Positions 298 to 23,847 of a stretch of 64,000 nucleotides of DNA are shown here, piece by piece. The translations under genes and the position numbers were made by a program. The notes under the pieces are model-generated. The model saw only the letters and a list, made by a program, of their open reading frames with translations. It was not told the DNA's origin and ran no database searches. The first letter of the stretch is position 1. Each line of letters begins with the position of its first letter. Location of the stretch: NCBI GenBank assembly GCA_030602345.1, contig JAUVZX010000004.1, forward strand, positions 202 to 64,201, read 5' to 3'. The stretch is from Bacilli bacterium (lineage in GTDB: Bacteria > Bacillota_I > Bacilli_A > RF39 > UBA660).

Positions 298-939
298 ATG
301 AAGAAATTAGTATTAATAGTTTTATCAATAGTAATTATTTCTGGCCTTTTTTATTTTTTGGCATATTTACCAGAACAAGCTAGAAAAATAAGAATAGCAG
401 AAATAAAAAAAGGTTGGCATGTGGAAATAACTACAAAAACATTAAACGTTAGAGAAACACCAGAGCCTTGGGGTGTTAAAATAGGAGAAGTGAAAGAAGG
501 TCAAGTTTATGAAGTTGTAGAAATGAATTTTTCTGATTTCTCGAGATTCTGGTATAAAATTAAGATAAATGACTATAAAGAAGGATGGGTTGCTAATCCA
601 AGAATTACAAAGGAATACTTGAATGATATAAATAATGATTTAGACATATCACCACCTACTTTAAAGTATTTTGAAGAAACATATTTTGTTAAAGATATAG
701 AATCTATTAATTATGATCATCTTGAAGTAACAGATGATAAAGATGGAGTAGTTGTTACTCATGTTATTTATCATGAGTATGAACCTAGTTCTGATCCTGA
801 ACTTCACAAAGACCAATATTGGATAGTTTATACTGCGACTGATACTTCAGACAAGAAGGTTTCTAAGACACAGGCTATTGTTTTTGAAAAAAGACCATCA
901 AAAAACCAAGTTATAGATTTTAAATTATTTAAAAAATAG
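298..939 (+). CDS. membrane-anchored SH3b + Ig-like (DUF5011-like) domain protein; paralog of 23242..23847
   Basis: 213 aa. N-terminal TM (LVLIVLSIVIISGLFYFLAYL). SH3b-like block GWHVEITTKTLNVRETPEPWG..GQVYEVVEM..WYKIKI..GWVANP. Ig-like block DISPPTL..YWIVYTATDTSDKKVSKTQAIVFE. Alignable end to end with 23242..23847. Confidence 0.6.
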   Translation: MKKLVLIVLSIVIISGLFYFLAYLPEQARKIRIAEIKKGWHVEITTKTLNVRETPEPWGVKIGEVKEGQVYEVVEMNFSDFSRFWYKIKINDYKEGWVANPRITKEYLNDINNDLDISPPTLKYFEETYFVKDIESINYDHLEVTDDKDGVVVTHVIYHEYEPSSDPELHKDQYWIVYTATDTSDKKVSKTQAIVFEKRPSKNQVIDFKLFKK

Positions 940-1024
940 ATATTTTATCTATTTTTTTGATTTGTAGTACTAAAAAAACTTTTTGATTTGCAATATTATG
1001 TTATAATTGTTATAAGGTGAAAAT

Positions 1025-1534
1025 ATGGAAAAGTATTTCTTGCGTATAGGTTTTATCTTATATATCGTATTTGTAATATTTATAAATTTTTATATTTTAT
1101 CGTATAATTTTTTTGAGGTGGCAAATTTTGGAAAATATACTTTTTTTTCGTCATCTAAAATAAAAGATTATCAAAGAGGTTATTTTATTATTTCTTCAAA
1201 AAACAATAAAGATGTTAATGTCGGGGACACTATATACTTTTATAATAGTTATGAAGCAAAGTCAGAAATTTTAAGTTCTGTTGTTTTTGAAATAAGCAAG
1301 AATAACGAAAATGAAATAACATATCAAATAGAAAATAATAAACTATTATCATCATCTTATTTAATAGGAAAAGAAGATGATTTTACGAAAGTGCCTTTTA
1401 TTGGTTATACAGTTGATTTTGTAACATCTACGATAGGGTATTTTTTAACTATATTTATACCATTGTTGTGGTTATTTGGCTGTCGTGTTTTAAAGATTTG
1501 TACAAATAGTAAGGTGTTTAAAAATGTTGTTTAG
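1025..1534 (+). CDS. SipW-like signal peptidase I paralog, catalytically degenerate (pseudo-peptidase)
   Basis: 169 aa with N- and C-terminal TM helices around a SipW-like core (VGDTIYFY, YLIGK), alignable to 6063..6602. The SM(E/A)P serine box reads SSSKIKDY and the THR(I/V) histidine box reads LSSVV (His lost). Confidence 0.55.
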   Translation: MEKYFLRIGFILYIVFVIFINFYILSYNFFEVANFGKYTFFSSSKIKDYQRGYFIISSKNNKDVNVGDTIYFYNSYEAKSEILSSVVFEISKNNENEITYQIENNKLLSSSYLIGKEDDFTKVPFIGYTVDFVTSTIGYFLTIFIPLLWLFGCRVLKICTNSKVFKNVV

Positions 1535-2429
1535 TAAGAAGAATATAATAATTTTATTATTTGCTGTATTTCTTTTGATTATATCCCCAACTTTAGGAAG
1601 ATTTATATACTTTGAAGTTAGAGATATATATTTTAGAGTTCAAAATTTTTATTTTGAAAGTGATAAATTAAAAGTAAATAAGGCAACATATCAAGTTAAT
1701 AATTATAACGGTGTTGATAGTTATAATGTTGTTATTAATTTAAATAGTTTTAAAAACAATTTGCAAAAAGCAACCATGGATATAGCTTATGAAATAACTT
1801 TTACATGTTCTAATAAAGCAATTTGTGATGTTGATAAGGATGATGGAATAATTTATTCTTCAAATAACATGGATACTATCACAATAACGATAACTCCTAA
1901 TCAACAGTTAAATAACAATGATATTATTTGGATGGATGTGGTTGCAAAATCGACTTCACCATATGTTAAAGAAATAAGCGCTATATTTATTTTAAGAGTA
2001 GGTTTTTTGGGTTTGTCTCATGAAATCGCAGATGAAGTAGGAAGTCCTTACCTCGAAGTAAAAGTGGCGAACACTTTAGAGTATTATCGAGTAATAGAAG
2101 CTTTCGGCAGCTATAATGTAGAAGATAGAATAAATAGATCGACATATTTAACTCTTAGTGAAACAGATAAACAGAAATGTGTTTCATCATTTGTTAACTT
2201 ATCGTTTGACCCTGATTTGATAGTTATAGATATGACTGGGGAAATTTATTTAAGATCGACCAATCAAACAACTCAATCAATCGGGGGTCACAATTATTTA
2301 AATGGTTTAACTTTTAGAATCGATGCTCAAGACAGTGTAATTATAAGATTTTATAAAAAAAATTCACAGCAAAACTATACTTTTCCAATAATCAATCCAA
2401 CTTCGATAGTTGCAGTTACATATAATTAA
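1524..2429 (+). CDS. secreted/membrane-anchored beta-rich protein, possible distant TasA/camelysin-like component
   Basis: 301 aa. AAGGTG RBS 1511-1516; 11-nt overlap with the upstream gene. Hydrophobic N-terminus IIILLFAVFLLIISPTLG; N/T/Y-rich body. Occupies the slot held by 20354..20926 in module B. Confidence 0.4.
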   Translation: MLFSKKNIIILLFAVFLLIISPTLGRFIYFEVRDIYFRVQNFYFESDKLKVNKATYQVNNYNGVDSYNVVINLNSFKNNLQKATMDIAYEITFTCSNKAICDVDKDDGIIYSSNNMDTITITITPNQQLNNNDIIWMDVVAKSTSPYVKEISAIFILRVGFLGLSHEIADEVGSPYLEVKVANTLEYYRVIEAFGSYNVEDRINRSTYLTLSETDKQKCVSSFVNLSFDPDLIVIDMTGEIYLRSTNQTTQSIGGHNYLNGLTFRIDAQDSVIIRFYKKNSQQNYTFPIINPTSIVAVTYN

Positions 2430-2438
2430 GGAGGACTT

Positions 2439-3419
2439 ATGCAGGTAAATATTTTAAACGAATATATTAATTTTTCCAAAATGTGTATTGAAAAATATGC
2501 TAAGAAAATATTAGATAAACATTACGATGAAGATATTTTTAATCATTATATGAAAATATATATTGATAGAAGATATTATGGTAATGGGTTTTTAGATTTT
2601 GATAAAAGTTTTTCATATTTTATTGCATATGAACTTAGGAAATACTATGAGACAAGCGAATATATAGAAAATGATAATGCTGCAAAAATGCTTAAAGTAT
2701 TTAAGTATATTTTATATTTTGATAATGTAAAAGAAACAGAATCAATGAATAAAGTTATCGCAGAAGTAGCTATTTTCAGAAAAGAAGAATTATTATTGAA
2801 TGATAATTCTAAATTTTCAAAAGAATTGTTATCAATGGTAAGAGATGATTTACTTCTAAAAAGAGAATTTATTGAAAAATTTCATATGGAAACATTTAAT
2901 ATGTGGTTTTATTTAACAGATTTAGAAAATGTTTATGATTCTGTATTGGAATCAACAATCAAATTTCCTAAATTATACAATAAAAAATCAATAAAAAAAG
3001 TATTTGATTCTAAAGATATAAAAGAAGAGCGTCAATTTGTAGAATATTGTTATGTTGCTTCTCACATACTATTAGATATTATAAAGGGAGATTTTAAAAA
3101 ACAATATATGGTTAGTTTTTCTCCTTCTTTAGTAACTAAGAAAACAAAAAACAAACAAGTAATGAATGTTATTGATAATGATATAGCAAAAGAAAAATTA
3201 GTTATTAAAATCAGTTATAAAGATTTCATTTCTTCTAAGGAAGAATATTATTCGAAGATGAGAATAGGTTTTAGATTTGCTCTTATCATAGATGAAGCTT
3301 TTGAAGGAAGAGAAGAAGACTTCAAAATTTTAGAAGCTTTTAAATACATAATAATTAGTAGCAAATCAATTTATTATGAAAGGATATCAAGTGATAACGT
3401 TGTAGTTACCTTGAAATAG
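2439..3419 (+). CDS. hypothetical cytoplasmic protein (no TM or signal peptide)
   Basis: 326 aa; AAGGAGGA RBS 2428-2435. The C-terminal half (..YMVSFSPSLV..LVIKISYKDF..GFRFALIIDEAFEG..FKYIIIS) only faintly recalls an EAL/TIM-barrel strand pattern, without the catalytic residues. Confidence 0.45.
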   Translation: MQVNILNEYINFSKMCIEKYAKKILDKHYDEDIFNHYMKIYIDRRYYGNGFLDFDKSFSYFIAYELRKYYETSEYIENDNAAKMLKVFKYILYFDNVKETESMNKVIAEVAIFRKEELLLNDNSKFSKELLSMVRDDLLLKREFIEKFHMETFNMWFYLTDLENVYDSVLESTIKFPKLYNKKSIKKVFDSKDIKEERQFVEYCYVASHILLDIIKGDFKKQYMVSFSPSLVTKKTKNKQVMNVIDNDIAKEKLVIKISYKDFISSKEEYYSKMRIGFRFALIIDEAFEGREEDFKILEAFKYIIISSKSIYYERISSDNVVVTLK

Positions 3420-3426
3420 TGATTAG

Positions 3427-4920
3427 ATGGAAGCATTCTTTAAATTTTTATATGAAATTTTATCATTATTTTTTGGTGGAATTTTTAACATTTTCAAAGG
3501 AATTTTTGATGGCTTGGTTCAAATGTTTAATTATAATTCCTACATTAGAGTATTAAATCAATACAAAGGCGAATTCAATGGTTCAGATTGGATATTTGTA
3601 GTAATGGCAATCGGATCTATTGTTATAATACTTAGTCTTACAATAGTATTGATTGTTCTTCTGGCGAGAAAATATATCAAATTCCGAAAAGGGTTAGTTG
3701 AGCAAGAAGAACTTTTAAGAGAGGTTTCTGCTTTGAACGAAGAAGTAGTTAAACTAATGAAAGAAAAAGATAAAATAATGTCGATCAGAGGTCCAATTCT
3801 TGATGGTGAAAATAACGAAGAAGACGCGATTAATACGGAAAACACACGTTTTTCTAAATTAACAGCGATCGATGTTCTTTATCATAATGTTCCCAAGAAA
3901 GATTTTGGTAATGACTTTACTTTAGAACAGTTAGTAGATATGTTTAGAAATTTTTCTGCCTACTATCTTCGTTTATATTATCGTGAAGAAATGATTAGAT
4001 TGTTTATTGCTTCATTAGCTTCAACAAAATTAATTATTTTACAAGGTATTTCTGGAACAGGTAAAACTTCATTAGCTTATGCGTGGGGTAAATTTTTACA
4101 AAATGATTCATGTGTTGCTTCTGTTCAACCTTCATGGAGAGATAGAACGGAATTATTTGGTTATTTCAATGAATTTACTAAAAAGTTCAATGAGACTGAC
4201 GTTTTAAAAGAAATATATGAAGCTGGATATACTGATGATATTTATACAGTAATTCTCGATGAGATGAATATTTCGAGGGTAGAATATTATTTTGCTGAAA
4301 TGCTATCTATTTTGGAAATGCCAAATAAAGATGAATGGAAAGTAGAATTAGTAGCTAGTGGTTGGCCAAACGATCCAAAAAAATTAATGGATGGTAAATT
4401 AAAAATTGCTCCTAATGTCTGGTACATAGGAACAATCAATAACGATGACTCAACATTTATGGTAACCGATAAGGTTTATGACCGTGCAATGCCTATTGAT
4501 ATTAATGAAAAAGGACAAGTGTTTGATGCTAAAGATATTCCTGCTCAAAAAATAAATTATAGTTACTTAGATAATTTATTTACTCAAGCATTAAAAACTT
4601 ATTCAATTTCAGAGGAGACTTTATCTAAAATTGAAGTAATGGATGATTTTGTTATTAGACATTTTAGAATAGCATTTGGTAACCGTATTGTGGCTCATAT
4701 GAAAAGGTTTGTGCCCGTTTATATGGCGTGTGGTGGTGATGAACTAGATGGAATTGATTATTTCCTTTCTAGAAAAGTATTACGTAAGTTTGAACAATTA
4801 AATATTGCGTATATTCGTGATGAGATAGATAATTACATAGACTTTTTAGATAAGACATTCGGAAAAGAAAGAATGAAAGAGTGTCAAGAATATTTAAGGA
4901 GACTTAAGAAAAGCGTTTAG
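3427..4920 (+). CDS. membrane-anchored McrB-family AAA+ (GTPase-type) protein
   Basis: 497 aa. Two N-terminal hydrophobic helices (second IFVVMAIGSIVIILSLTIVLIVLL followed by RKYIKFRK), then a short coiled coil. Walker A GISGTGKTS; Walker B and McrB-type extension VILDEMNISRVEYYFAEMLSILE; YIGTINNDDSTFMVTDKVYDRAM resembles the McrB NxxD / R-finger block. Confidence 0.75.
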   Translation: MEAFFKFLYEILSLFFGGIFNIFKGIFDGLVQMFNYNSYIRVLNQYKGEFNGSDWIFVVMAIGSIVIILSLTIVLIVLLARKYIKFRKGLVEQEELLREVSALNEEVVKLMKEKDKIMSIRGPILDGENNEEDAINTENTRFSKLTAIDVLYHNVPKKDFGNDFTLEQLVDMFRNFSAYYLRLYYREEMIRLFIASLASTKLIILQGISGTGKTSLAYAWGKFLQNDSCVASVQPSWRDRTELFGYFNEFTKKFNETDVLKEIYEAGYTDDIYTVILDEMNISRVEYYFAEMLSILEMPNKDEWKVELVASGWPNDPKKLMDGKLKIAPNVWYIGTINNDDSTFMVTDKVYDRAMPIDINEKGQVFDAKDIPAQKINYSYLDNLFTQALKTYSISEETLSKIEVMDDFVIRHFRIAFGNRIVAHMKRFVPVYMACGGDELDGIDYFLSRKVLRKFEQLNIAYIRDEIDNYIDFLDKTFGKERMKECQEYLRRLKKSV

Positions 4921-4935: not shown

Positions 4936-6066
4936 ATGAAAGAATTAAAAATTATTGATTTATATCAAAAAACTAATGAGCAAAAATTAAATTCTTTCTC
5001 TGAAACTTTAAATTCTTCAGTGGAAGTATCACATGTTTATAGTGATTATATATATGACGATGAGTGGATGACAAAGATAGAAAATGGTGTTAGATATATT
5101 GAAAACATTCTTAGAAATCCTAATCGTTTTATCATCAATGAAGAGGATGTTGTAAAAATTGAATTAGCTAGAAAAATTACTGTGGATAGTATTAAACATT
5201 TGTCTAAAAATACTAACTTGATTCAAGATATAGATAAGTACACTGGAGATGTTAAGCCTTCCAAAATATTAAATATTAATAAAGAAGAAAGCTTTAATAC
5301 ATATGAAAATCGTTTTATATATAGTTTAATTAAAAATTTAGATTTATATATCAATAGAAAAAAACAGTTAATTAATAGAAGTTTTTTCTATGCAAATGAT
5401 AAAGAAATAAAATATAAAGGAACAACGGAATTATCTAATGAAAAAGTAGATATTTCCATTAATCTAAATACTAAAATAATGGATTCTGAAAAAGTTGCTC
5501 AAGAAAAAATAGAGAGAATTTTAGAAAGAATCAAAAGCGTAGAAGACAGAATAACCGATTTAAAACAGTTTGAAGTTTTTTCTATGTTAAATAAAGCAAA
5601 TACTAGCCTAGTTACTTCACCGATCAAGAAGACGAATGTAATTTTAAAAAATGTAAATTTCCAAAATGCTGTTGAACTATGGAATTATATTCAAGTCAAT
5701 ATGAATGATAATTCAAAAGTGTCTAACAGTGATAAAAGACTAGATGATGATCCAGAAATAAAGGGTTTAATCGATGAAATTTTTATGATGAATTATTTGG
5801 TTGCGAGATCCCTCGATCAAGATGAAGAAGACGAAGAAAAGAAAAAAGCAGTCTCTGGATTTTTAATTAATAATCTTGTTCAAAAAATGGTTCAAACTAA
5901 TTCTGATTTAACTCAAAAAGAATTAACTGATATGATTAAAAAAGAATTTATTTATATTAGAAAACAAGATATGGTTAGTACTAGAGAAATCAAAAATATA
6001 TTTAAAGGAGCTATTAAAGAATATCGAAAAATGGCTAATAATAACATATTGAGGAGTAAAAAATGA
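4936..6066 (+). CDS. McrC N-terminal/DUF2357-like partner protein with no recognisable nuclease domain
   Basis: 376 aa; GGAGG RBS 4925-4929. Motif ESFNTYENRFIYSLIKNLDLYI. C-terminal half is K/E-rich coiled and acidic (DQDEEDEEKKK) with no PD-(D/E)xK pattern seen. Stop overlaps the sipW start (ATGA 6063-6066). Confidence 0.45.
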   Translation: MKELKIIDLYQKTNEQKLNSFSETLNSSVEVSHVYSDYIYDDEWMTKIENGVRYIENILRNPNRFIINEEDVVKIELARKITVDSIKHLSKNTNLIQDIDKYTGDVKPSKILNINKEESFNTYENRFIYSLIKNLDLYINRKKQLINRSFFYANDKEIKYKGTTELSNEKVDISINLNTKIMDSEKVAQEKIERILERIKSVEDRITDLKQFEVFSMLNKANTSLVTSPIKKTNVILKNVNFQNAVELWNYIQVNMNDNSKVSNSDKRLDDDPEIKGLIDEIFMMNYLVARSLDQDEEDEEKKKAVSGFLINNLVQKMVQTNSDLTQKELTDMIKKEFIYIRKQDMVSTREIKNIFKGAIKEYRKMANNNILRSKK

Positions 6067-6602
6067 AAAATAATTTAATAATTAGAAGTATCTTTTTTAT
6101 AGCGAAAACAATAGCAGTATTATTTGTTGTTGGAATTTTCTCTATTATTTTAGTTCAAAGAGTTTTTAATAACAACGTTTCACTATTTGGTTATAGAATA
6201 TTTACAGTTGTAACTCAAAGTATGGAACCAGATTATATGGTTTCCGATATCATTATTTCCAAAAATGTTGATACTAATACATTGAAAGTTGGAGATGACG
6301 TTGTTTATCTGGGTAAAGTTGGTACTTTTGAAAATAAAATAGTTACTCATAGAATAATTGAAATAGTAGAAAATGACGGACCGAAAGAATTTTACACTCA
6401 AGGCATTAATAATACCGGAGTAGATCCTGTCGTGACGGAAGATCAAATATATGGAGTTGTTCTAGGAAAGAGCAGTATTTTAAGTTTTTTAAGTAAACTA
6501 GTTAGCACTCCGTTTGGTTTTATGTTGCTAGTTTTATTGCCTGGTTCTATTTTAATAGCAACTGAGATATTCGATAAATTTAACGAAAAAGAAGAAGAGT
6601 AA
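6063..6602 (+). CDS. sipW: signal peptidase I, SipW (ER/archaeal) type, catalytic residues intact
   Basis: 179 aa. N- and C-terminal TM helices; Ser box VVTQSMEPDY; His box VTHRIIEI; later YTQGINN..DP block. Confidence 0.8.
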   Translation: MKNNLIIRSIFFIAKTIAVLFVVGIFSIILVQRVFNNNVSLFGYRIFTVVTQSMEPDYMVSDIIISKNVDTNTLKVGDDVVYLGKVGTFENKIVTHRIIEIVENDGPKEFYTQGINNTGVDPVVTEDQIYGVVLGKSSILSFLSKLVSTPFGFMLLVLLPGSILIATEIFDKFNEKEEE

Positions 6603-6603
6603 C

Positions 6604-7191
6604 ATGAAAGCATTTTTTTCAAAAAATAATCTTAGATTGAACTTTTTATTGATGATGGCAATATTGTTATCATTTAATTCTTTTGCGTGGTTTGTATATT
6701 CTTCAAGAGTTGCAAATAGTATTACAACTAGAGTAAGAGGTTGGAAAGTTAATTTTGAATCCGGAGATAATCAAGTAGCGGAATTCATCAATTTTAATGT
6801 TGATGCTTTGTATCCGGGAATGGCCGAATATAACAATGCAATCAATATAATTAACTATAGTGAGGTCCCGGTTAATTTAACTTACGAAATAGTCAGCATA
6901 AAAATAATGGATGAAATATACAACGGAGAGGATTATCAATTGGTTGATTTACTTGATATGTTGAGCGACGATTTTCCCTTTTCTATTAATTTTGAATTAA
7001 CAGAATCTATATTGCCGCCCAATCAAGGAGAAAGTGATTTCCTTATAAATATAATTTGGCCATTTGAAAGTGGAGATGATGAAGCTGATACTTATTGGGG
7101 CAACTTAGCTTATGATTATGCACAAGAAAACCCGGCATCACCGGGCATTGTAATTTCAGTAAGATTATTTGCTACACAAGGAACGCCTTAA
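6604..7191 (+). CDS. TasA/camelysin-like secreted protein (small subunit type 1)
   Basis: 195 aa; 1-nt gap after sipW. N-terminus KNNLRLNFLLMMAILLSFNSFAWF resembles the SipW-cognate signal class. LYPGM and beta-sandwich-like alternating pattern. Confidence 0.6.
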   Translation: MKAFFSKNNLRLNFLLMMAILLSFNSFAWFVYSSRVANSITTRVRGWKVNFESGDNQVAEFINFNVDALYPGMAEYNNAINIINYSEVPVNLTYEIVSIKIMDEIYNGEDYQLVDLLDMLSDDFPFSINFELTESILPPNQGESDFLINIIWPFESGDDEADTYWGNLAYDYAQENPASPGIVISVRLFATQGTP

Positions 7192-7772
7192 TTAATCACT
7201 TGAGAGAAATTAATTAAAACATTCATTTTGGCTTTGCCATCTGATAGAGCAGCTATTGTGTCATCTACATTATTTGAAGAAGAATCATCCCATTTTATAT
7301 AAAGGCGGATGGTTCTTGTTTTATTTTGAGCATCTAATAAGATTGTTTCATCATAATCGGTTATCATTCCACCAACGTTATTCATTGCTCCACCATCTAT
7401 CGTATAACCAACTACAATTAGATCGCTCACAGCACTTTCAGCATTTATTGAAGTGATTAAAGAATAATTAAAGGATACATCAACATTAGTTGCATCTATA
7501 TTTAAATCGAAATATCCAACTGCTCCGGGAGCGATTACTCCATCGGCAACATTACTATTATTAAGAAATATAGGAGTAAGAACATTATTTATTTGATTAT
7601 TTGAAATTATATCTTGGTTATTGACTATTATATTCCATCTTGCAATAGAAATATTCGTTTCACCACTTGCTTCACTTCTATATTTTGAATAAGTATCTTG
7701 AACTGTTGAAATTAAAAGAAGGAAAGAAATAAGTGCAATCAAAAAACCAGTTTTTTTATCTCGCTTCATCAT
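7188..7772 (-). CDS. TasA/camelysin-like secreted protein (small subunit type 2), inverted relative to the operon; paralog of 20354..20926
   Basis: 194 aa; GGAGGA RBS on the minus strand just upstream. N-terminus KKTGFLIALISFLLLISTVQDTYSKYRSE. IARWNIIVNN and APGAVGYFDLNIDA match LADWQILVNN and APGLDGYFEIILDP in the module B paralog. Confidence 0.55.
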   Translation of the reverse strand: MMKRDKKTGFLIALISFLLLISTVQDTYSKYRSEASGETNISIARWNIIVNNQDIISNNQINNVLTPIFLNNSNVADGVIAPGAVGYFDLNIDATNVDVSFNYSLITSINAESAVSDLIVVGYTIDGGAMNNVGGMITDYDETILLDAQNKTRTIRLYIKWDDSSSNNVDDTIAALSDGKAKMNVLINFSQVIN

Positions 7773-18138: not shown

Positions 18139-18246
18139 ATGCAAGAAATCAATAAATTAGAAACTCAAGAACTGTTAGAAATATATAACATAATTTTAGA
18201 ATACTTAAAAAAATTAGAAGAACAAAAATTAAAAGAAGGGACATAG
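18139..18246 (+). CDS. small 35-aa coiled-coil ORF (not in ORF track)
   Basis: AGGAG RBS 18126-18130, ATG 18139, TAG 18244-18246. MQEINKLETQELLEIYNIILEYLKKLEEQKLKEGT. Next gene starts 3 nt later. Confidence 0.35.
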   Translation: MQEINKLETQELLEIYNIILEYLKKLEEQKLKEGT

Positions 18247-18249: not shown

Positions 18250-19755
18250 ATGGAATTAAAAGAAAAAATTATACAGCAAATCAAACTGGATCAAGAAATT
18301 CTATCTTCTATGCCAACTAATAATAATAAAAACAAATTACTTAAAAATGAAAAATTAGATGAAAAATTAGTTTTCTATGAGAAAATAAAAGAAAAAATAA
18401 CAGCAGAATTATTAAAAAGAAGTAATTATTTTGAAAACCTAAAAATAAACAATGAAATTTTAAAATTAAAAAAAGATATTGTTGTTATTGAACACCAAAT
18501 AATGCTCCTCAACGATACAAATTCTTCATATGAAAAATTAGGACTAGATAAGATAGTTTATGATATAGGAAAATATTATAAGAATAAGTTAGAAAAAGTA
18601 AACTTCGATATATATAAAGCAATTATGATTTTTAAAGATGCCGGAATTAAATTATCTAAGGAAGAATTCATTTATAGTGAATTTGGAAAAGAATATATGG
18701 AAATTTTTCTTACTGAAACAAGAAGCATAGATTCTTTAGAACTTCGAGAAAAGTTTGAAAGTATATATTGGAAACAACCAGAAGTAATGAAATATATTCA
18801 AAATAATTTCAGATATTTATATAGAATTCATAAAAAAGAATTAAAAAACTATATTATTTCAGAAATAAATAAGAATAAAGAGAACAATCTAACAAAACTT
18901 TTACTAAAACATTCTCAAAAAAGAAAAGAATTAAAAGATTTAATTTCAAAAGATGAATATCTTTATTTACAAAAGTTCATTAATAAAGAAATCAGAATAG
19001 ATGACTTTGATGAGAGTAAGTTTGTAATTAAATATAATAATTTAGTTAGCGAGGGAATTTCTAGGGAAAACGCTATATTATCAATTAAAAGTTTAAATAA
19101 TACAACAAAAGAATACAGAGATTATCTTAAATATAAGTTTATTATAGAAGATATAACTAAGATATATGAAAGCAAGGATCAAATTAAATCGTCTAAAATT
19201 AAACTAAAAGAGATAAAACAAAGAGAAGATCAATTAGAAATAGATTCTGGAAAAAAGAAAAAACTATTTGGTAATAAAAAAATTGATAGAGATGATATTG
19301 TAGGAGAATTAGAAAAACTCTACTTAGAATTAGATGAAATAATATTTATTGAAAAAGTTAAAGAAAAAATAAAGAAAACATCCAAAGTAATTGATGTATT
19401 AAGTTTGGCTTCATCATATCATTCATATGTAGCTTCTTTATTGAAGAGAAGGGAACCTGAAATTACGGATGAAAATATATATTTATTTTTCGAAGAATTA
19501 AGATTATTTGCGCTAAATTTAGATAATAATTTGGTTTCTAACTTAAATGTTTTTGAAGACAGTGATTTACCAATGATAATAAGTGATAAATACATACTGG
19601 ATGGTTTGAAAGTAAGTATAGATGATTTTATTGGAAATAAAATAGATGATTTAATTGCAGCAACAGAATGGATTATTAATTATGAGAATAGCCTTGCTAT
19701 TCCAATTAAAAAAATGAATGATTATTTATTGATAAAGGATAAATTAATAGTTTAA
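18250..19755 (+). CDS. K/E/I-rich coiled-coil cytoplasmic protein of unknown function
   Basis: 501 aa; no TM or signal; long heptad-like K/E/L/I stretches. Last gene of module A. Confidence 0.45.
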   Translation: MELKEKIIQQIKLDQEILSSMPTNNNKNKLLKNEKLDEKLVFYEKIKEKITAELLKRSNYFENLKINNEILKLKKDIVVIEHQIMLLNDTNSSYEKLGLDKIVYDIGKYYKNKLEKVNFDIYKAIMIFKDAGIKLSKEEFIYSEFGKEYMEIFLTETRSIDSLELREKFESIYWKQPEVMKYIQNNFRYLYRIHKKELKNYIISEINKNKENNLTKLLLKHSQKRKELKDLISKDEYLYLQKFINKEIRIDDFDESKFVIKYNNLVSEGISRENAILSIKSLNNTTKEYRDYLKYKFIIEDITKIYESKDQIKSSKIKLKEIKQREDQLEIDSGKKKKLFGNKKIDRDDIVGELEKLYLELDEIIFIEKVKEKIKKTSKVIDVLSLASSYHSYVASLLKRREPEITDENIYLFFEELRLFALNLDNNLVSNLNVFEDSDLPMIISDKYILDGLKVSIDDFIGNKIDDLIAATEWIINYENSLAIPIKKMNDYLLIKDKLIV

Positions 19756-19806: not shown

Positions 19807-20352
19807 ATGAAAAAAGTATTGAAAATTGTCGGTTGGTCGTTATTAGCAATTATTATTGCTGTAGATATATTTGTTACTGTTTATTTATTAAATTTTAATA
19901 ATTTTGCAGTATCACAAATCGGAAAGTACACTTTTCTAGTAATAGATGAAAAAGTTGCTGATTTCGATAAGAATGATTTAGTTATCGTTAAGAAAAATGA
20001 TAATAAGGAAATAGAAGTTGGAGATTATATATTCTTTTATGATGTTAAATCAAAAGAAAATGTAGTTAATTATGGAAAAGTAAATAGTGTATTTGAAGTA
20101 AATGAAAAAGAATCAACATTTACTATGAGTGATAATCTTCCTTTATCTAGTCAATATGTGATTGGAAAAAGTGAAACGGCATCATCATTCGCGTACTTAG
20201 GGTTATTACTATCTGTATTATCTTCACAATGGGGATTCTTATTCTTAGTAATATTTCCAATATTAATTTTATTCTTATATCAAATTAATATATTTATTGC
20301 AGAACTTCAAGCCGAAAAAAAACAATCAAAAAATAAAAAAGAAAAAGAGTAA
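19807..20352 (+). CDS. SipW-like signal peptidase I paralog, catalytically dead (pseudo-peptidase)
   Basis: 181 aa; N- and C-terminal TM helices; paralog of 1025..1534 (IGKYTFLV, VGDYIFFY, YVIGK). Glu sits at the catalytic Ser position (VIDEKVADF vs TQSMEPDY) and Asn at the His position. Confidence 0.55.
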   Translation: MKKVLKIVGWSLLAIIIAVDIFVTVYLLNFNNFAVSQIGKYTFLVIDEKVADFDKNDLVIVKKNDNKEIEVGDYIFFYDVKSKENVVNYGKVNSVFEVNEKESTFTMSDNLPLSSQYVIGKSETASSFAYLGLLLSVLSSQWGFLFLVIFPILILFLYQINIFIAELQAEKKQSKNKKEKE

Positions 20353-20353: not shown

Positions 20354-20926
20354 ATGAAAAAAATATTACCTCTTTTATTATTGACGTTATTAATTATATT
20401 ATTCGGACAATTAGCTTCTACTTATGGTATTTTTGAGACCAATGTTGATGTTGGCTCGGAAATAGAGTTGGCAGATTGGCAAATATTAGTTAATAATATA
20501 AATTTAAATGAAGAAGAGCAAGAATTTAATATTACCAATATTCTATGGGATACAAATAGTAATGTATTGCCGGGCAAAGCTGCTCCGGGATTAGATGGTT
20601 ATTTTGAAATAATATTAGATCCAAGAACAACACAAGTAGCTATAGAATATGAAGTTACTTTTGAGTTCTCAGAATTAGAAAATTCAAATATCTATATAAC
20701 TTCAGTAAAAGATAGAAATAATAATGATATTTTAATTGTCGATAGTGAAACCTATGCTTCTTCAATGACTTTGGAAGAAGTTCAATTAAATCAAATAGAA
20801 ATAATTAAAGTTTCCTTTACTTGGGAAATGGATGAAGAAAACAGCATTATTGACTCTGGCACAGTTAATATTCCTGATTCTAATCTAGTAATACCGGTTA
20901 GACTGAGAGTCTTTCAAAAAATTTAA
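20354..20926 (+). CDS. TasA/camelysin-like secreted protein (small subunit type 2)
   Basis: Start moved to ATG 20354 (MKKILPLLLLTLLIILFGQLASTYGIFE), 1 nt after the upstream stop. The ORF-track start 20297 would overlap the upstream gene. Paralog of 7188..7772. Confidence 0.55.
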   Translation: MKKILPLLLLTLLIILFGQLASTYGIFETNVDVGSEIELADWQILVNNINLNEEEQEFNITNILWDTNSNVLPGKAAPGLDGYFEIILDPRTTQVAIEYEVTFEFSELENSNIYITSVKDRNNNDILIVDSETYASSMTLEEVQLNQIEIIKVSFTWEMDEENSIIDSGTVNIPDSNLVIPVRLRVFQKI

Positions 20927-20944
20927 CAACAAGGGGTTGTTAGC

Positions 20945-21508
20945 ATGCTAAAAGTAAACACTATGCTAAAAGTAGTTGAAAATATTTTAATGGTTATTTT
21001 TGTAGTAACCATTTTTATAGTGGCTTATAACTTTTTACAACTAAAACTATTAAATAAGGACTATGTAAGTTTTTTCGGTTATTCTTTTTTTGAAGTAATT
21101 AGTGACAGTATGGCTCCGACATTAACAAAACAAGACGTTATAATAATTAAAAAAAATGATAACTATATAAAAGATAGTATAATCACATATAAGGCTAACA
21201 ATGCTTTTGTGACGCATAGGGTGATAGAAGTTAACTCTAACTTTTATTTAACCAGAGGAGACGCTAATAATGCTACTGATGTGCCTGTTTTAAAAGAAGA
21301 TGTAGTAGGAGAAGTAGTAATTACTTTAAAAGGACTTGGAATTTGGAGAAATATTTTATTGGATCCCCAATTTCTAATTGTATTAATAATATTAGTAGTT
21401 ATTATTAATAGTTATTTCTTTAAAGATGGGACTCTAAAAGAATATAACAAAAATAAATTCAAGAAAGACTTTAAAACTAGTCATAAAAAAATTATTGAGG
21501 AATTATGA
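20945..21508 (+). CDS. sipW: signal peptidase I, SipW (ER/archaeal) type, catalytic residues intact
   Basis: 187 aa. Ser box VISDSMAPT, His box VTHRVIEV, RGDANN..D block, two TM helices. ATGA overlap with the next gene. Confidence 0.8.
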   Translation: MLKVNTMLKVVENILMVIFVVTIFIVAYNFLQLKLLNKDYVSFFGYSFFEVISDSMAPTLTKQDVIIIKKNDNYIKDSIITYKANNAFVTHRVIEVNSNFYLTRGDANNATDVPVLKEDVVGEVVITLKGLGIWRNILLDPQFLIVLIILVVIINSYFFKDGTLKEYNKNKFKKDFKTSHKKIIEEL

Positions 21509-22089
21509 AAATATTATCTATTCTTAAAATAAAGAAAAGAGTGACTAAAATAATAGTAATAATATTTTTATTATTATTTAGTTTTGTGGTGATTCCTTAT
21601 GCATATTCTAGATATGAATCTTCAGCTACATCAAATCTTGTCGCTCCAATAGCGCACTATTTATTAAAAGCAGATTATATCCAAACAAATATCGAAGTGG
21701 GAACTATAGTTCCTTCTGACGATCCTTATATATATACATTTACAATTTCTAATAATTATCAAGGAAGAAGAACAGAGATTAATCTGGAGTATGATGTAGC
21801 AATTAGAACCACTACAAATTTACCTTTGGAATATGAATTATATATAAATCAAGATTATGAACATCCATCTTCAACTTCATCTATTATAAGTGATGAATAT
21901 ATACAAGATGATCATAATACTTATTTTAGGGAATTGAAAGTAGCTAGAGAATATTTTAACTTTACACTTGATGAAATTAATAATTATACGCTAGTTGTTC
22001 GATTTCCCAGTCAATATAAGGTTAATAATTATGAAGAGATAATCGAAAGTGTTGAAATAATAATTGACTCTAGACAAAAGGTTGACTAA
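21505..22089 (+). CDS. secreted protein, probable TasA/camelysin-like small subunit
   Basis: 194 aa. N-terminus KKRVTKIIVIIFLLLFSFVVIPYAYSRYESS (compare TYSKYRSE in 7188..7772). Beta-rich body. Confidence 0.45.
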   Translation: MKILSILKIKKRVTKIIVIIFLLLFSFVVIPYAYSRYESSATSNLVAPIAHYLLKADYIQTNIEVGTIVPSDDPYIYTFTISNNYQGRRTEINLEYDVAIRTTTNLPLEYELYINQDYEHPSSTSSIISDEYIQDDHNTYFRELKVAREYFNFTLDEINNYTLVVRFPSQYKVNNYEEIIESVEIIIDSRQKVD

Positions 22090-22104
22090 AATTTACAAAA
22101 AAAG

Positions 22105-22133: not shown

Positions 22134-22178
22134 AAAACTAGATAATATGAAACCATATTATATAGAGAGGGGATTACA

Positions 22179-23162
22179 ATGAAAGGTAAGTCTAAAAGAC
22201 AAAGAAAATTATTCTTAATGATGGTTATGATGCTTTCGACAGCAGCATTTATCTCAACAGCAACGTTTGCTTGGTTTACAGCTAACAGAACTGTTGCAGT
22301 TCAAGATATTCAAATTAACGTAGAAGCACAAGGAGGTATTCAAGTTTCTGCCGATGGAACAAATTGGAAATCAATTGTTAACATAGCAGATTTAACTAAC
22401 GTAGCAGCAACATATGATGCTAGTATTAATCAAATACCTACTATTCTTGAACCGGTTTCATCAGCATTGACTGTTGATACAAATGGTTTAATGGAAATGT
22501 TCTACGGTGAAGTTGTAACAAACGTAGGTGGAGATTATATCTTAACAGCTACTAAAACAACTGAAACAAGAAATAATCCAGCTGGAAGATTTGTTGCATT
22601 CGATCTATTCTTTAGATTAGAAGCTGCTTCAAGTTTATACTTAACTCCTAATTCAGGTGTTAGTACTCCAGATGCTACAGATACTGGAATTAAAAATGCT
22701 GCACGTATGGCATTCGTTAATTTAGGAAACGTTGCATTAGGTTCTCCAGTTGCAACTATTCAAGCATTAAATGCAGGTGTTGCAGCACCAGTTACTTTAT
22801 GGGAACCAAACTATAATAGTCATACAGCACCAGCTATTGCTCATGCTTTTGATACTTATGGTTTAACAGTAGATGGAATCAATCCAGTTCCTTATTCAGG
22901 TGTTAGAGCTCCGATTGATGCTATAGAAGACATTTTAGTAGGTGATGCTACTGAAACTAACTATCCAGCATTCTTTACAGCTATAACTCCATCATTATTA
23001 ACTGAAGAAGGATTTGCAGTTAACACAGAAGTATTTAGTTTACCACAAGGTATTTCTAAAGTAAGAATTTATATGTGGGTCGAAGGACAAGATATAGATG
23101 CTGAAAATACAGCTTCAGGTGGAGCAGCAACATTTACTCTTCAATTAACTATCGAAGAATAA
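22179..23162 (+). CDS. large TasA-like secreted subunit, candidate major fibre subunit
   Basis: 327 aa; RBS GAGAGGGG. N-terminus KGKSKRQRKLFLMMVMMLSTAAFISTATFAWFTANR; A/T/V/G-rich body. Own candidate promoter and strong terminator. Paralog of 8622..9596. Confidence 0.65.
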   Translation: MKGKSKRQRKLFLMMVMMLSTAAFISTATFAWFTANRTVAVQDIQINVEAQGGIQVSADGTNWKSIVNIADLTNVAATYDASINQIPTILEPVSSALTVDTNGLMEMFYGEVVTNVGGDYILTATKTTETRNNPAGRFVAFDLFFRLEAASSLYLTPNSGVSTPDATDTGIKNAARMAFVNLGNVALGSPVATIQALNAGVAAPVTLWEPNYNSHTAPAIAHAFDTYGLTVDGINPVPYSGVRAPIDAIEDILVGDATETNYPAFFTAITPSLLTEEGFAVNTEVFSLPQGISKVRIYMWVEGQDIDAENTASGGAATFTLQLTIEE

Positions 23163-23167
23163 AAATA

Positions 23168-23195
23168 AAAGAAAACCAATTGGTTTTCTTTTTTA
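23168..23195 (+). terminator. rho-independent terminator
   Basis: AGAAAACCA-AT-TGGTTTTCT followed by a T-run. Confidence 0.75.
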
Positions 23196-23241
23196 TTTGA
23201 CATTATATATTTAAGAAGATAAAATTAAACAAGAGGATAAT

Positions 23242-23847
23242 ATGAAAAAATTTTTAAGTTTAATATTAATAATAGTTATAATAGTAGGAGCATATTTCTT
23301 ATTTATTGTTGTTCCTAAACAACAAATTTTAAAAGGATGGCATGTTGAGGTAACAACTGATGTACTTAATTTAAGAGATACTCCAGAACCATGGGGTGTA
23401 AAATTAGGAGAAGTTAAAAAAGGACAAGTATATGAAGTTTTAGAAATGAATTTAGAAGATAGTAAGTTCTTTTGGTATAGAATTAAAATAAAAAGAAATA
23501 AAAAAGGGTGGATAGCTAATCCCCGTGTCACTTTAGATTACTTAAAAGATAATAACAACCCAGAGGATATTGCTCCTCCTTCAATTAAAATATTTGATAA
23601 TGAATATAAGGTCAATAAAATAGAAGACATTGATTATAAACACCTTGAAGTGAGAGATGATAAGGGTATAGAGAGTATAACTCATATTGTTTATCATGAA
23701 TATAAACCGAAAGAAGACATTGATCAATATTGGATAGTTTATACTGCAATTGATATTTCTGGTAAAAAAACGAGTAGAACCCAAAGTATAGAGTTTGAAA
23801 AAAGACCTTCAAAGAGTCAAGTAGTAGATTTTGAACTTAGAAAATAA
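23242..23847 (+). CDS. membrane-anchored SH3b + Ig-like domain protein; paralog of 298..939
   Basis: 201 aa. TM, GWHVEVTTDVLNLRDTPEPWG..GQVYEVLEM..WYRIKI..GWIANP, then DIAPPSI..YWIVYTAIDISGKKTSRTQSIEFE. Confidence 0.6.
   Translation: MKKFLSLILIIVIIVGAYFLFIVVPKQQILKGWHVEVTTDVLNLRDTPEPWGVKLGEVKKGQVYEVLEMNLEDSKFFWYRIKIKRNKKGWIANPRVTLDYLKDNNNPEDIAPPSIKIFDNEYKVNKIEDIDYKHLEVRDDKGIESITHIVYHEYKPKEDIDQYWIVYTAIDISGKKTSRTQSIEFEKRPSKSQVVDFELRK

What the first reader, a model, noticed from the sequence alone, without database searches (positions are those of the whole stretch)
298..23847. Duplicated SipW / TasA-like secreted-fibre super-locus bracketed by SH3b-Ig paralogs
About 23.5 kb forms two paralogous modules.

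Module B (19807-23847) has this order: dead SipW paralog, small TasA-like, active SipW, small TasA-like, large TasA-like, SH3b-Ig protein.

Module A (298-19755) has the same parts: SH3b-Ig at the outer end, dead SipW paralog, secreted protein, active SipW, two small TasA-like genes and a large TasA-like gene. It is expanded with a cytoplasmic protein, a McrB/McrC-like pair, a membrane-anchored family member, a 2840-aa repeat protein and coiled-coil proteins.

The secreted members have a K-rich n-region, a hydrophobic core, and then (S/T)FAW(F/L) or Y-S-(K/R)-Y. This resembles the SipW-cognate signal class known from TasA and camelysin.

I see no sortase or LPXTG, no type IV pilus ATPase, and no chaperone-usher genes. 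The B. subtilis paradigm (tapA-sipW-tasA) has three genes. An elaborated, duplicated version of about 20 genes is not something I recognise as described.

The paralogs are diverged at the DNA level, so this is an old, maintained duplication.
Basis: partly seen in the sequence, partly recalled or inferred. Interest (0 to 1): 0.8.

Follow-up and report, generated by a model that had tools for sequence, protein, structure and literature searches.

The report
SipW fibre locus with McrB GTPase
This 23.5-kb gene cluster most likely builds a surface fibre carrying a giant adhesin, cut by dedicated SipW-type signal peptidases and coupled to a membrane-anchored McrB-like GTPase; it matches a system type named "CoCoPALM" in 2024 but never characterised, and it is conserved in hundreds of uncultured small-genome Bacilli.

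Summary
The gene content, gene order and two-module paralogy are real.

- **Peptidases.** Both "active SipW" genes pass the archaeal/SipW signal-peptidase model and keep the catalytic Ser and His. Both "dead" paralogs lack them, as do about 80 relatives.
- **Signal motif.** Eight proteins carry a hydrophobic signal followed by [STA][YFL][AGS]x[FYWLR]. One is the 2840-aa giant. No other ORF in the 64-kb window has it.
- **Fold.** The four small proteins are homologous to each other. The AlphaFold model of one best matches archaeal TasA-superfamily fibres (Hyper2/CanA cannulae, AbpA), but weakly. The large subunits match no solved fold. No protein reaches the TasA Pfam model or a small TasA profile.
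- **McrB/McrC pair.** It is a TM + coiled-coil McrB-like GTPase plus a nuclease-less DUF2357 protein. This is what Bell et al. (eLife 2024) named CoCoPALM in one paragraph.
- **Conservation.** Gene order holds in about 80 loci from uncultured Bacilli/"Tenericutes" MAGs. Module order is permuted, and the duplication is old.
- **SH3b genes.** They are lineage-specific and not part of the system.

Verdict: a real, conserved system and a new, elaborated variant of a known kind. Its mechanism is unknown.

The parts
298..939 (+). A1: membrane-anchored SH3b protein. It is lineage-specific and not part of the conserved system.
   Evidence: Pfam SH3_3 at E 4.8e-7. 57% identical to B6. No homolog in the related loci. 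Its promoter/RBS region 254-295 is duplicated at 23197-23238.
1025..1534 (+). A2: catalytically dead SipW paralog with N- and C-terminal TM segments.
   Evidence: Weak SipW/TIGR02228 hits at E 2.5e-6 and 1e-5. hhalign to SipW gives 90-91%. Catalytic Ser and His are absent.
1524..2429 (+). A3: secreted 301-aa protein with a SipW-type signal (TLG|RF) and conserved Cys residues. Fold unknown.
   Evidence: Motif scan. Family consensus TyGRYIYN. No Pfam or PDB match. Conserved in 33 loci.
2439..3419 (+). A4: cytoplasmic 326-aa protein of unknown function, always between A3 and A5.
   Evidence: No TM segment. No Pfam or PDB match. Present in 32 loci.
3427..4920 (+). A5: membrane-anchored McrB-like AAA+ GTPase (TM 50-86, coiled coil, then the motor domain). 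This is the CoCoPALM McrB homolog.
   Evidence: Profile hit to E. coli McrB 6hz4 at E 3.8e-5, covering Walker A, Walker B and the N-x(x)-D motif. N338, N339, D340 and D341 are invariant, and mean column identity is 77%. PADLOC PDC-M26A at E 3.3e-34. 35-39% identical to ATPases that sit in CoCoNuT-like plasmid operons, one with an annotated DUF2357 gene directly downstream. FtsL-like hits in 9 of 25 members.
4936..6066 (+). A6: McrC-like protein with a DUF2357 (McrC N-terminal) domain plus a predicted coiled-coil/charged region. No nuclease domain was detected.
   Evidence: DUF2357 at E 1.1e-11 in the window protein and in 26 of 26 family members. No PD-(D/E)xK family among the hits.
6063..6602 (+). 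A7: active SipW-type signal peptidase I of module A.
   Evidence: TIGR02228 at 69.5 bits, above the 51.85 cut-off. Ser and His are invariant in 27 of 27. The first Asp of GDxN is replaced by I/V/L and the second Asp is kept.
6604..7191 (+). A8: small secreted subunit with an FAWF-type signal.
   Evidence: hhalign to B2 gives 95%. Motif SFA|WF.
7188..7772 (-). A9: small secreted subunit with a TYS|KY signal. Its opposite-strand orientation is conserved in nearly all relatives.
   Evidence: hhalign to B2 gives 99.9%. It is on the opposite strand in all but two (L007, L059) of the loci that contain it.
7916..8620 (+). A10: signal-anchored membrane protein whose C-terminal strands resemble those of the large subunit. 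Candidate fibre base or anchor.
   Evidence: One TM segment at 15-49 and no cleavage motif. hhalign to the B5 C-terminus gives 83% over 38 columns.
8622..9596 (+). A11: large secreted subunit, A-type.
   Evidence: 38% identical to B5. Groups with the A-context clade in the NJ tree. Motif SFA|WL.
9605..18127 (+). A12: 2840-aa secreted giant. It has a SipW-type signal (TYG|QR), a glycine-rich domain, roughly 20-aa YGGxN repeats suggestive of a beta-helix, and a non-repeat C-terminal region. Candidate adhesin.
   Evidence: Gly_rich_2 at E 1.1e-15. Sequence read directly. A 297-bp tandem repeat of 3.3 copies at 13799-14791. N-terminal TY(G/S)(E/Q) is conserved in 5 full-length homologs. No LPXTG or C-terminal TM segment.
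18139..18246 (+). Conserved 35-aa helical ORF between the giant gene and A13.
   Evidence: Similar 37-40-aa genes are called at the same position in L001-L004 and L085.
18250..19755 (+). A13: cytoplasmic, Lys/Glu-rich (coiled-coil-like by inspection) 501-aa protein that always follows the giant gene.
   Evidence: No TM segment. No Pfam or PDB match. Present in 48 loci.
19807..20352 (+). B1: catalytically dead SipW paralog of module B.
   Evidence: hhalign to SipW gives 97-98%. His is absent in all 74 family members, and Ser is mostly absent.
20354..20926 (+). B2: small secreted subunit with a TYG|IF signal. This is the protein that was modelled.
   Evidence: AF2 model at pLDDT 81. Best Foldseek matches are Hyper2 tube, CanA and AbpA. 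The family has 3108 representative clusters at E<=1e-3.
20945..21508 (+). B3: active SipW-type signal peptidase I of module B.
   Evidence: TIGR02228 at 71.6 bits. Ser, His and both Asp residues are invariant in 49 of 49.
21505..22089 (+). B4: small secreted subunit with an AYS|RY signal.
   Evidence: hhalign to A9 gives 95% and to B2 93%. Motif scan.
22179..23162 (+). B5: large secreted subunit, B-type, with a TFA|WF signal.
   Evidence: 1287 homologs, none with a Pfam domain. AF2 model at pLDDT 88 with no significant structural neighbour. TIGR04088 hits 36 of 50 family members.
23242..23847 (+). B6: SH3b protein, a recent paralog of A1. Not part of the conserved system.
   Evidence: SH3_3 at E 9.1e-7. 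Has its own promoter-like region 23197-23238, similar to 254-295. Absent from related loci.

Best explanation
The locus encodes a sortase-independent, SipW-dependent cell-surface fibre system of the type Bell et al. (2024) called CoCoPALM.

**Export and cleavage (inferred).** Eight proteins are exported by Sec: four homologous small subunits, two large subunits, A3 and the 2840-aa giant. One of the two dedicated SipW-type peptidases cuts them after a conserved [ST]-[YF]-[AGS] site. The small subunits are predicted to have jelly-roll folds.

**Assembly (inferred).** By analogy with TasA, AbpA and CanA fibres, the newly exposed N-terminal strand polymerises the subunits by donor-strand complementation. 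The glycine-rich, repeat-bearing giant would be the adhesin carried by the fibre. The signal-anchored A10 and the two catalytically dead SipW paralogs would hold or nucleate the fibre at the membrane.

**Cytoplasmic module (shown to be present; role inferred).** A membrane-anchored McrB-like AAA+ GTPase (A5) sits on the cytoplasmic face with a nuclease-less McrC-N/DUF2357 activator (A6). Together with A4 and A13 they would control or energise assembly. What they act on is unknown.

**History (shown).** The two modules are an ancient duplication kept together, in varying order, across hundreds of uncultured small-genome Bacilli.
For: - **Peptidases.** TIGR02228 scores are above cut-off, and Ser and His are invariant in 76 of 76 active peptidases. 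Dead paralogs are present in both modules.
- **Signal motif.** The cleavage-type motif is exclusive to 8 locus proteins among the window's 80 ORFs. It is conserved in each family. TIGR04088 hits 36 of 50 large-subunit relatives.
- **Small subunits.** They are mutually homologous. The top structural matches of the model are donor-strand fibres of the TasA superfamily: 9bab (prob 1.0), 9hdi (0.96), 9h8b (0.95) and 7ueg (0.92). PMC12518558 assigns these to the TasA superfamily.
- **A10.** It shares its C-terminal strands with the large subunit.
- **A5.** It resembles McrB, has a TM segment plus coiled coil, and its nearest relatives are CoCoNuT-type GTPases.
- **A6.** It is a DUF2357 protein without a nuclease.
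- **Published description.** The description of CoCoPALM matches these features.
- **Synteny.** The order dSipW-A3-A4-A5-A6-SipW-A8-A9(-)-A10-large-giant-small ORF-A13-dSipW-small-SipW-small-large recurs in about 80 loci.
- **Not mobile.** B5 has no match in phages.
Against: - No filament has been seen. Polymerisation and donor-strand exchange are inferred only.
- The structural matches of the small subunit are weak (E 6e-3 to 5e-2, TM 0.36-0.52), and TasA itself is not among the top 50.
- The large subunit has no recognisable structural relative.
- No protein reaches Peptidase_M73 or a TasA-family profile.
- A Sec/SipW-exported, self-assembling fibre has no obvious need for a cytoplasmic NTPase, so the role given to A5/A6 is a guess.
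- A3, A4 and A13 have no detectable relatives of known function.
- The giant's C-terminal 1250 aa show no subunit-like domain that would dock it to a fibre.
Confidence: 0.6

Rival explanations
1. It is an ordinary TasA-type biofilm-matrix operon, duplicated, that happens to contain an unrelated McrBC-like defence cassette. The GTPase pair would have nothing to do with the fibre.
For: The SipW plus cognate-signal logic is the same as in tapA-sipW-tasA. A5's GTPase domain is closest to ATPases of candidate defence systems (PADLOC PDC-M26A at 3.3e-34; CoCoNuT-like plasmid operons).
Against: - A4-A5-A6 occupy the same position between A3 and A7 in all 30 or so loci that contain the module.
- A5 is the most conserved protein of the cluster, with 77% mean column identity against 36-55% for the others.
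- A5 has a TM anchor where McrB has a DNA-binding domain.
- A6 has no nuclease.
- Defence islands are normally patchy, not syntenic across species.
Confidence: 0.12
2. The whole cluster is an immune or conflict system of the CoCoNuT lineage. The surface filaments or giant protein would act as phage decoys or sensors, and the GTPase would transmit or execute the response.
For: A5 belongs to the CoCoNuT-like clade, which Bell et al. treat as Type IV restriction relatives. The surface proteins diverge quickly (36-50% identity) next to a highly conserved motor. The giant gene contains tandem repeats.
Against: - No nuclease, HEPN, toxin or other effector domain was found in any of the 19 proteins.
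- The cluster is chromosomal and syntenic in hundreds of species.
- It sits next to housekeeping genes.
- B5 has no match in phages.
Confidence: 0.1
3. It is a cannula-like intercellular or cell-division-linked structure, or a nucleic-acid or protein conduit. The FtsB/FtsL-like McrB translocase would couple fibre growth to the septum or move a polymer through it.
For: The best structural matches of the small subunit are cannula proteins (Hyper2, CanA), which form tubes between dividing cells (PMC12518558). A5's N-terminus gives FtsL-like hits in 9 of 25 members. Bell et al. call the N-terminus FtsB-like. McrB-family motors translocate DNA.
Against: - The structural matches are weak and shared with non-tubular AbpA pili and with PapG and BslA.
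- There is no DNA-binding domain, relaxase or channel protein in the locus.
- The FtsL hits are marginal (best E 0.05).
Confidence: 0.08

Closest known systems
[quoted passage not shown]
   Same: An McrB-like GTPase is fused to an N-terminal transmembrane plus coiled-coil (FtsB-like) segment. The McrC homolog has DUF2357 and a coiled coil. The pair is associated with signal-peptidase-family genes. All of this is seen here.
   Different: The paper gives one paragraph and defers the description. The following are not in that text:
- The SipW-cognate substrates.
- The dead SipW paralogs.
- The second GTPase-less module.
- The giant adhesin.
- The permuted module order.
- The restriction of this version to small-genome uncultured Bacilli.

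I could not place A5 in their tree.
tapA-sipW-tasA of Bacillus subtilis, and the TasA/camelysin family
   Same: A dedicated SipW-type peptidase is encoded next to its substrates. The signal ends in a T-[YF]-A-[YWF]-F-like motif; compare GGGTYAYFSD in Bacillus TasA-family genes and GTFALFND in Haloferax. No sortase, usher or ATPase is needed for TasA fibres.
   Different: - No sequence-level membership.
- Two peptidases plus two dead paralogs instead of one.
- Six or more substrate families, including a 2840-aa protein.
- A cytoplasmic GTPase module.
- No TapA homolog was identified.
Archaeal TasA-superfamily fibres: CanA/CanX/Hyper2 cannulae and AbpA bundling pili (PMC12518558, PMC9245690)
   Same: These are the best structural neighbours of the small subunit model. 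Those fibres assemble by donor-strand complementation, and their genes often sit next to signal peptidase I.
   Different: They are archaeal single-subunit or few-subunit systems without a GTPase. The similarity here is only E 6e-3 to 5e-2.
CoCoNuT / McrBC Type IV restriction systems
   Same: The A5 motor domain is 35-39% identical to CnuB-like ATPases. A DUF2357 partner is encoded immediately downstream.
   Different: There is no DNA- or RNA-binding domain and no nuclease. The motor is membrane-anchored and embedded in a secretion and fibre operon.

Membership tests
CoCoPALM (Bell et al. 2024) | McrB-like AAA+ GTPase domain | tested here: met
   The A5 family profile hits E. coli McrB (6hz4) at E 3.8e-5 across Walker A, Walker B and the N-x(x)-D motif. 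AAA_5 is hit in 17 of 25 members. PADLOC PDC-M26A at 3.3e-34.
CoCoPALM (Bell et al. 2024) | NxD (not NxxD) signature of the CoCoNuT-like clade | tested here: inconclusive
   N338-N339-D340-D341 are invariant. This can be read as NxD followed by D, as the paper describes, or as NxxD, as in the gap-free alignment to NTAD of McrB. The nearest relatives sit in CoCoNuT-like operons.
CoCoPALM (Bell et al. 2024) | N-terminal FtsB-like transmembrane plus coiled-coil segment fused to the GTPase | tested here: met
   One TM segment at residues 50-86 is followed by a heptad-like stretch. FtsL or FtsL_2 Pfam hits appear in 9 and 4 of 25 members, but weakly (best E 0.05 and 0.03). The architecture is therefore met, while homology to FtsB itself is only hinted.
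CoCoPALM (Bell et al. 2024) | McrC homolog (DUF2357) with coiled coil, encoded next to the GTPase | tested here: met
   DUF2357 is present in 26 of 26 members (best E 1.1e-15). No nuclease family appears among the hits. The coiled coil is my reading of the charged region at about residues 170-215; no prediction was run. The gene lies 16 bp downstream of A5.
CoCoPALM (Bell et al. 2024) | Association with signal-peptidase-family genes | tested here: met
   A2 and A7 flank the A3-A6 block in the window and in about 30 related loci.
SipW / archaeal-type signal peptidase I (TIGR02228) | Family HMM above the curated cut-off | tested here: met
   A7 scores 69.5 bits and B3 71.6 bits against a cut-off of 51.85. 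A2 and B1 score only 25.5 and 21.4 bits, so they are not members by this criterion.
SipW / archaeal-type signal peptidase I (TIGR02228) | Catalytic Ser and His | tested here: met
   Ser and His are invariant in 27 of 27 A7-type and 49 of 49 B3-type proteins. His is absent in all 80 A2/B1-type proteins.
SipW-cognate signal peptide class (TIGR04088) | Match to the signal-peptide model | tested here: inconclusive
   No window protein hits it at E<=1. 36 of 50 members of the large-subunit family do (best E 2e-4). The small families were not scanned as families against NCBIfam.
SipW-cognate signal peptide class (TIGR04088) | n-region, h-region, then a T-[YF]-A-x-F-type motif, encoded beside the peptidase | tested here: met
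   Eight of 8 locus proteins and 0 of 72 other ORFs have the motif. The family consensus is conserved. Compare TasA-family GGGTYAYFSD and GTFALFND.
TasA / Peptidase_M73 (PF12389) | Sequence membership (Pfam HMM or profile-profile match) | tested here: not met
   No PF12389 hit for any locus protein, nor for 58 small-family members at E<=10. hhalign against TasA, and against a 6-sequence TasA-family profile, gives at most 21.5% probability. That TasA profile was small, so a very distant relationship is not excluded.
TasA superfamily (structural) | Jelly-roll fold resembling TasA, AbpA or CanA | tested here: inconclusive
   For the small subunit the top Foldseek matches are Hyper2, CanA and AbpA, with prob 0.87-1.0 but E 6e-3 to 5e-2 and TM 0.36-0.52. 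For the large subunit there is no match at E<=1e-3.
TasA superfamily (structural) | Polymerisation by donor-strand complementation | not testable with these tools
   Multimer prediction and experiments were not available.
McrBC Type IV restriction | DNA-binding N-terminal domain on McrB and a PD-(D/E)xK nuclease on McrC | tested here: not met
   The A5 N-terminus is a TM segment plus coiled coil. The A6 family shows no nuclease domain.
Sortase-dependent Gram-positive pili | LPXTG sorting signals and a sortase gene | tested here: not met
   No LPXTG-like motif in any of the 19 proteins. No sortase family hit.

The most novel reading that the evidence does not exclude
The McrB-like GTPase-McrC-N pair is the motor or gate of a new, NTP-dependent class of Gram-positive surface-fibre machine. 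The machine would be built from SipW-processed jelly-roll subunits, pseudo-peptidase scaffolds and a giant adhesin. It would be distinct from sortase pili, type IV pili, chaperone-usher pili and passively assembled TasA fibres. Small-genome, probably partner-dependent Bacilli would use it to attach to hosts or other cells, or to exchange material with them.
Probability: 0.25. Interest if true: 0.85.

Novelty: new variant of a known kind. Interest (0 to 1): 0.62.

Why it matters
The cluster takes about 23 kb in organisms whose genomes can be as small as about 1.26 Mb (the length of the circular MAG chromosome OZ006994.1 listed). It is syntenic across hundreds of uncultured species from animal guts and sediments. 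It is therefore probably central to how these uncultivated Bacilli live.

It combines parts never studied together:
- SipW-type peptidases with dead paralogs.
- Fibre subunits that resemble the TasA superfamily.
- A giant adhesin.
- A restriction-enzyme-derived GTPase that has lost its nuclease partner domain and gained a membrane anchor.

Working out what that GTPase does would show how a defence motor was re-used for a cell-surface function, or the reverse. It would also define the CoCoPALM class, which has so far only been named.

Tried and rejected
- **Alternative genetic code.** An in-frame TGA in the pdp gene falls where Gly is expected, which suggested code 25 or 4. I rejected this because all other genes, including a 2840-codon ORF, are intact under table 11. 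The same gene also has a 1-nt deletion, so it is a pseudogene or a sequencing error.
- **Invertible element around the minus-strand gene A9.** No convincing flanking inverted repeats.
- **Promoter and terminator scan.** Counts were not above the shuffled expectation.
- **Profile searches of A3, A4, A13, A6 and the small family against PDB sequences.** Nothing informative.
- **Large-subunit model against PDB and viral structures.** Nothing.
- **hhalign of TasA and a TasA-family profile against all subunit families.** At most 21.5% probability.
- **hhalign of the giant's C-terminal 1250 aa against subunit families.** Nothing.
- **Phage origin.** B5 has no match in phage records.
- **Supplements of Bell et al.** They contain no CoCoPALM details.
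- **TANB77 gut 'pilin' paper.** It describes a type IV pilus cluster and is unrelated.
- **Look-up of the window's own contig.** Not on record.
- **First structure job with locus-derived sequences.** I repeated it with database hits.

Full report
**1. What is in the sequence**

The window is low in G+C (about 27%) and comes from a member of the Bacillota: it has a T-box leader, a SAM riboswitch and a tRNA cluster. All are on the + strand except A9 (7188-7772).

BLASTP confirms five paralog pairs:
- SH3b proteins A1/B6: 57% identity.
- Dead peptidases A2/B1: 31%.
- Peptidases A7/B3: 38%.
- Small proteins A9/B2: 32%.
- Large proteins A11/B5: 38%.

Profile-profile comparison, using families built from related loci, adds further links:
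- A8, A9, B2 and B4 are all homologous to each other (93-99.9% probability, except the A8-A9 pair at 58.5%).
- The dead peptidases are related to the active ones (90-98%).
- The membrane protein A10 shares its last 38 or so residues with the large subunit (83%).

At the DNA level only short stretches remain similar. The copies are old.

**2. Peptidases and their dead paralogs**

A7 and B3 score 69.5 and 71.6 bits against TIGR02228, the archaeal/SipW-type signal peptidase I model, whose cut-off is 51.85. In an alignment of 156 family members, the catalytic Ser and His are invariant in all 27 A7-type and all 49 B3-type proteins. None of the 80 A2/B1-type proteins has the His, and most lack the Ser. 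The dead paralogs keep both transmembrane segments. A7-type enzymes have replaced the first Asp of the GDxN motif but keep the second.

**3. Substrates**

I scanned all 80 ORFs of at least 80 aa in the 64-kb window for a hydrophobic N-terminal segment followed by [STA][YFL][AGS]x[FYWLR]. Exactly eight matched, and all are in the locus: A3, A8, A9, A11, the giant A12, B2, B4 and B5.

The motif is conserved in each family:
- Large subunit: TSTYAWFTANKTV.
- A8: NsFAWFIY.
- A9: ETYAKYLT.
- B2: sYGLFES.
- B4: TYSryes.
- A3: TyGRYIYN.
- Giant: TY(G/S)(E/Q).

It resembles the TasA-family motif, seen as GGGTYAYFSD in Bacillus and GTFALFND or GTYSAFSD in Haloferax. The NCBIfam model for SipW-dependent signals, TIGR04088, hits none of the window's own proteins. 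It does hit 36 of 50 members of the large-subunit family (best E 2e-4). No protein has LPXTG, and no sortase, type IV pilus ATPase or usher was found.

**4. Are the subunits TasA-like?**

By sequence, no.
- Peptidase_M73 is not hit by any locus protein, nor by 58 small-family members even at E<=10.
- Profiles find no TasA among PDB sequences.
- hhalign against TasA gives nothing.
- hhalign against a six-member TasA-family profile gives at most 21.5% probability.

By predicted structure, the picture is mixed.
- The small subunit B2 (pLDDT 81) has as best Foldseek matches the Hyper2 cannula-like tube (9bab: E 5.9e-3, prob 1.0, TM 0.42/0.52), CanA (9hdi, 7uii), native cannulae (9h8b) and the AbpA bundling pilus (7ueg, prob 0.92). 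The PapG pilin domain and BslA follow.
- Sleutel et al. place CanX/CanA, Hyper2 and AbpA in the TasA superfamily of donor-strand-complemented jelly-roll fibres, whose genes often lie beside signal peptidase I (PMC12518558).
- These matches are weak, and TasA itself is not in the top 50.
- The large subunit B5 (pLDDT 88) has no match at E<=1e-3 in the PDB or in viral models.

So 'TasA-like' is a reasonable functional analogy for the small subunits. It is unproven for the large ones, and family membership fails.

**5. The McrB/McrC-like pair**

The A5 family profile matches E. coli McrB (6hz4, E 3.8e-5) across Walker A, Walker B and the N-x(x)-D motif. Residues N338, N339, D340 and D341 are invariant. 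With 77% mean column identity, A5 is by far the most conserved protein of the cluster. Its N-terminus has one transmembrane segment (50-86) followed by a coiled coil, with weak FtsL-like hits in 9 of 25 members.

Its nearest relatives in plasmids (35-39% identity) are large ATPases in CoCoNuT-like operons; in the Pseudanabaena record the gene directly downstream is annotated as DUF2357. It also hits the candidate defence model PDC-M26A (3.3e-34).

A6 carries DUF2357, the McrC N-terminal domain that activates McrB (PMC11090510). This holds in 26 of 26 members, and no nuclease domain is detected.

Bell et al. (eLife 2024) describe this combination in one paragraph. [quoted passage not shown] They name it CoCoPALM and defer it to a future paper. 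A full-text search finds the term only in that paper and its preprint, and the supplements hold no details.

**6. Conservation**

The large-subunit family has at least 1287 members, none with a Pfam domain. The small family has 3108 representative clusters at E<=1e-3. In species-representative genomes, 372 stretches encode a relative. By their record titles these are nearly all MAGs labelled Bacilli, Tenericutes, Mollicutes, Erysipelotrichaceae, or CAG-type 'Clostridium'/'Firmicutes', from human, primate, chicken and ruminant guts. Judging only from isolate names in the record titles, the two genome loci closest to the window (62-64% identity) may come from brine and sediment samples. One hit is a circular 1.26-Mb genome.

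I mapped the 19 window proteins onto 80 loci. Two blocks are conserved:
- giant - small ORF - A13 - dSipW - small - SipW - small - large.
- dSipW - A3 - A4 - A5 - A6 - SipW - A8 - A9(-) - A10 - large.

The order of the blocks varies:
- giant-B: 35 loci. In these the flank is too short to see what lies upstream.
- B-A: 10 loci.
- giant-B-A: 6 loci.
- A-giant: 2 loci.

One contig pair (L072/L055) and locus L085 reproduce the window's order, A then giant.

In a neighbour-joining tree, 11 of 14 large subunits found after A10 separate from all 62 found after B4 or B3. The duplication therefore predates the divergence of these species.

The SH3b genes A1 and B6 occur in none of the related loci. They share even their promoter/RBS regions (254-295 and 23197-23238). 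They are a recent, lineage-specific duplication that happens to flank the cluster.

**7. The remaining genes**

The giant protein has a SipW-type signal, a glycine-rich domain (Gly_rich_2, E 1.1e-15), and dozens of roughly 20-residue YGGxN repeats suggestive of a beta-helix. These include a 297-bp tandem array. It also has a non-repeat C-terminal region of about 800 aa, and it has no C-terminal anchor. I found no subunit-like domain in its last 1250 residues. A3, A4 and A13 have no detectable relatives of known function.

**8. Most likely mechanism**

Shown:
- Dedicated active peptidases.
- A private signal class on eight proteins.
- Homologous small subunits predicted to be beta-sandwich.
- A membrane-anchored McrB-like GTPase with a nuclease-less McrC-N partner.
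- Strict synteny.

Inferred:
- The subunits are cut after [ST][YF][AGS] and polymerise by donor-strand complementation into a surface fibre.
- The giant is the adhesin.
- A10 and the dead peptidases anchor or nucleate the fibre.
- The GTPase complex, with A4 and A13, regulates or powers assembly from the cytoplasmic side.

The last step is the weakest, because known TasA-type fibres need no NTPase.

Rival explanations:
- The GTPase pair is an unrelated inserted defence cassette. Its fixed position and extreme conservation argue against this.
- The whole cluster is a conflict system. No effector domain was found.
- It is a cannula-like or division-linked conduit. The support is thin.

**9. Verdict**

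It is best filed as an elaborated member of the CoCoPALM class, which has been named but not characterised. It works on the SipW/TasA principle without being a TasA-family member. Novelty: a new variant of a known kind. Interest: moderate to high, because the function of the GTPase and of the pseudo-peptidases is open and can be tested.

Noticed in passing
window 24217-25496: The pyrimidine-nucleoside phosphorylase gene is broken twice. There is a 1-nt deletion in the conserved 'DKHSTGGVGDK' motif near 24460. There is also an in-frame TGA at 25005-25007, exactly where Gly is expected (EGR*PEDL). It is probably a pseudogene or an assembly error. No other gene suggests that TGA is recoded.
   Followed up: partly
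window 18139-18246: A 35-aa helical ORF (MQEINKLETQELLEIYNIILEYLKKLEEQKLKEGT) lies between the giant gene and A13. Similar 37-40-aa genes are called at the same place in L001, L003 and L085.
   Followed up: partly
window 7188-7772 and related loci: The small-subunit gene A9 is on the opposite strand from the rest of the operon in nearly every relative. It converges on A8 (with a 4-bp overlap of the 3' ends) and diverges from A10. No flanking inverted repeats suggest an invertible switch.
   Followed up: partly
related loci L005, L011/L075, L012, L044, L055/L072, L078: The three blocks (module A, giant-A13, module B) occur in all three cyclic orders in different genomes. Some loci lack one large subunit (L078) or place a large subunit directly after A13 (L044).
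   Followed up: partly
window 254-295 and 23197-23238: The regions upstream of the two SH3b genes are 74% identical. Both contain TTGACA, a -10-like GATAAAAT and a GGAGGA ribosome-binding site. The duplication therefore included the promoter, and each gene is its own transcription unit.
   Followed up: partly
window 6063-6602 (A7) and its 27 orthologs: Module-A SipW enzymes have replaced the first Asp of the GDxN motif by I, V or L, while module-B enzymes keep it in 49 of 49. The two peptidases may differ in catalytic detail or in substrate.
   Followed up: partly
window 13799-14791: There is a 297-bp (99-aa) tandem repeat of 3.3 copies at 83% identity inside the repeat region of the giant gene. 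This could be a source of length variation.
   Followed up: no
window 37323-38372, 33737-33830, 56420-56588: A cluster of 12 tRNA genes, a SAM riboswitch upstream of the ORF at 33733-35034, and a T-box leader upstream of the ORF at 56618-57994.
   Followed up: no
L088 (Haloferax gibbonsii plasmid pHG1, 471090-476509): Two adjacent 'TasA family protein' genes (207 and 484 aa) are followed by a signal peptidase I gene. This is an archaeal example of the same substrate-plus-peptidase arrangement, with GTFALFND and GTYSAFSD motifs.
   Followed up: no
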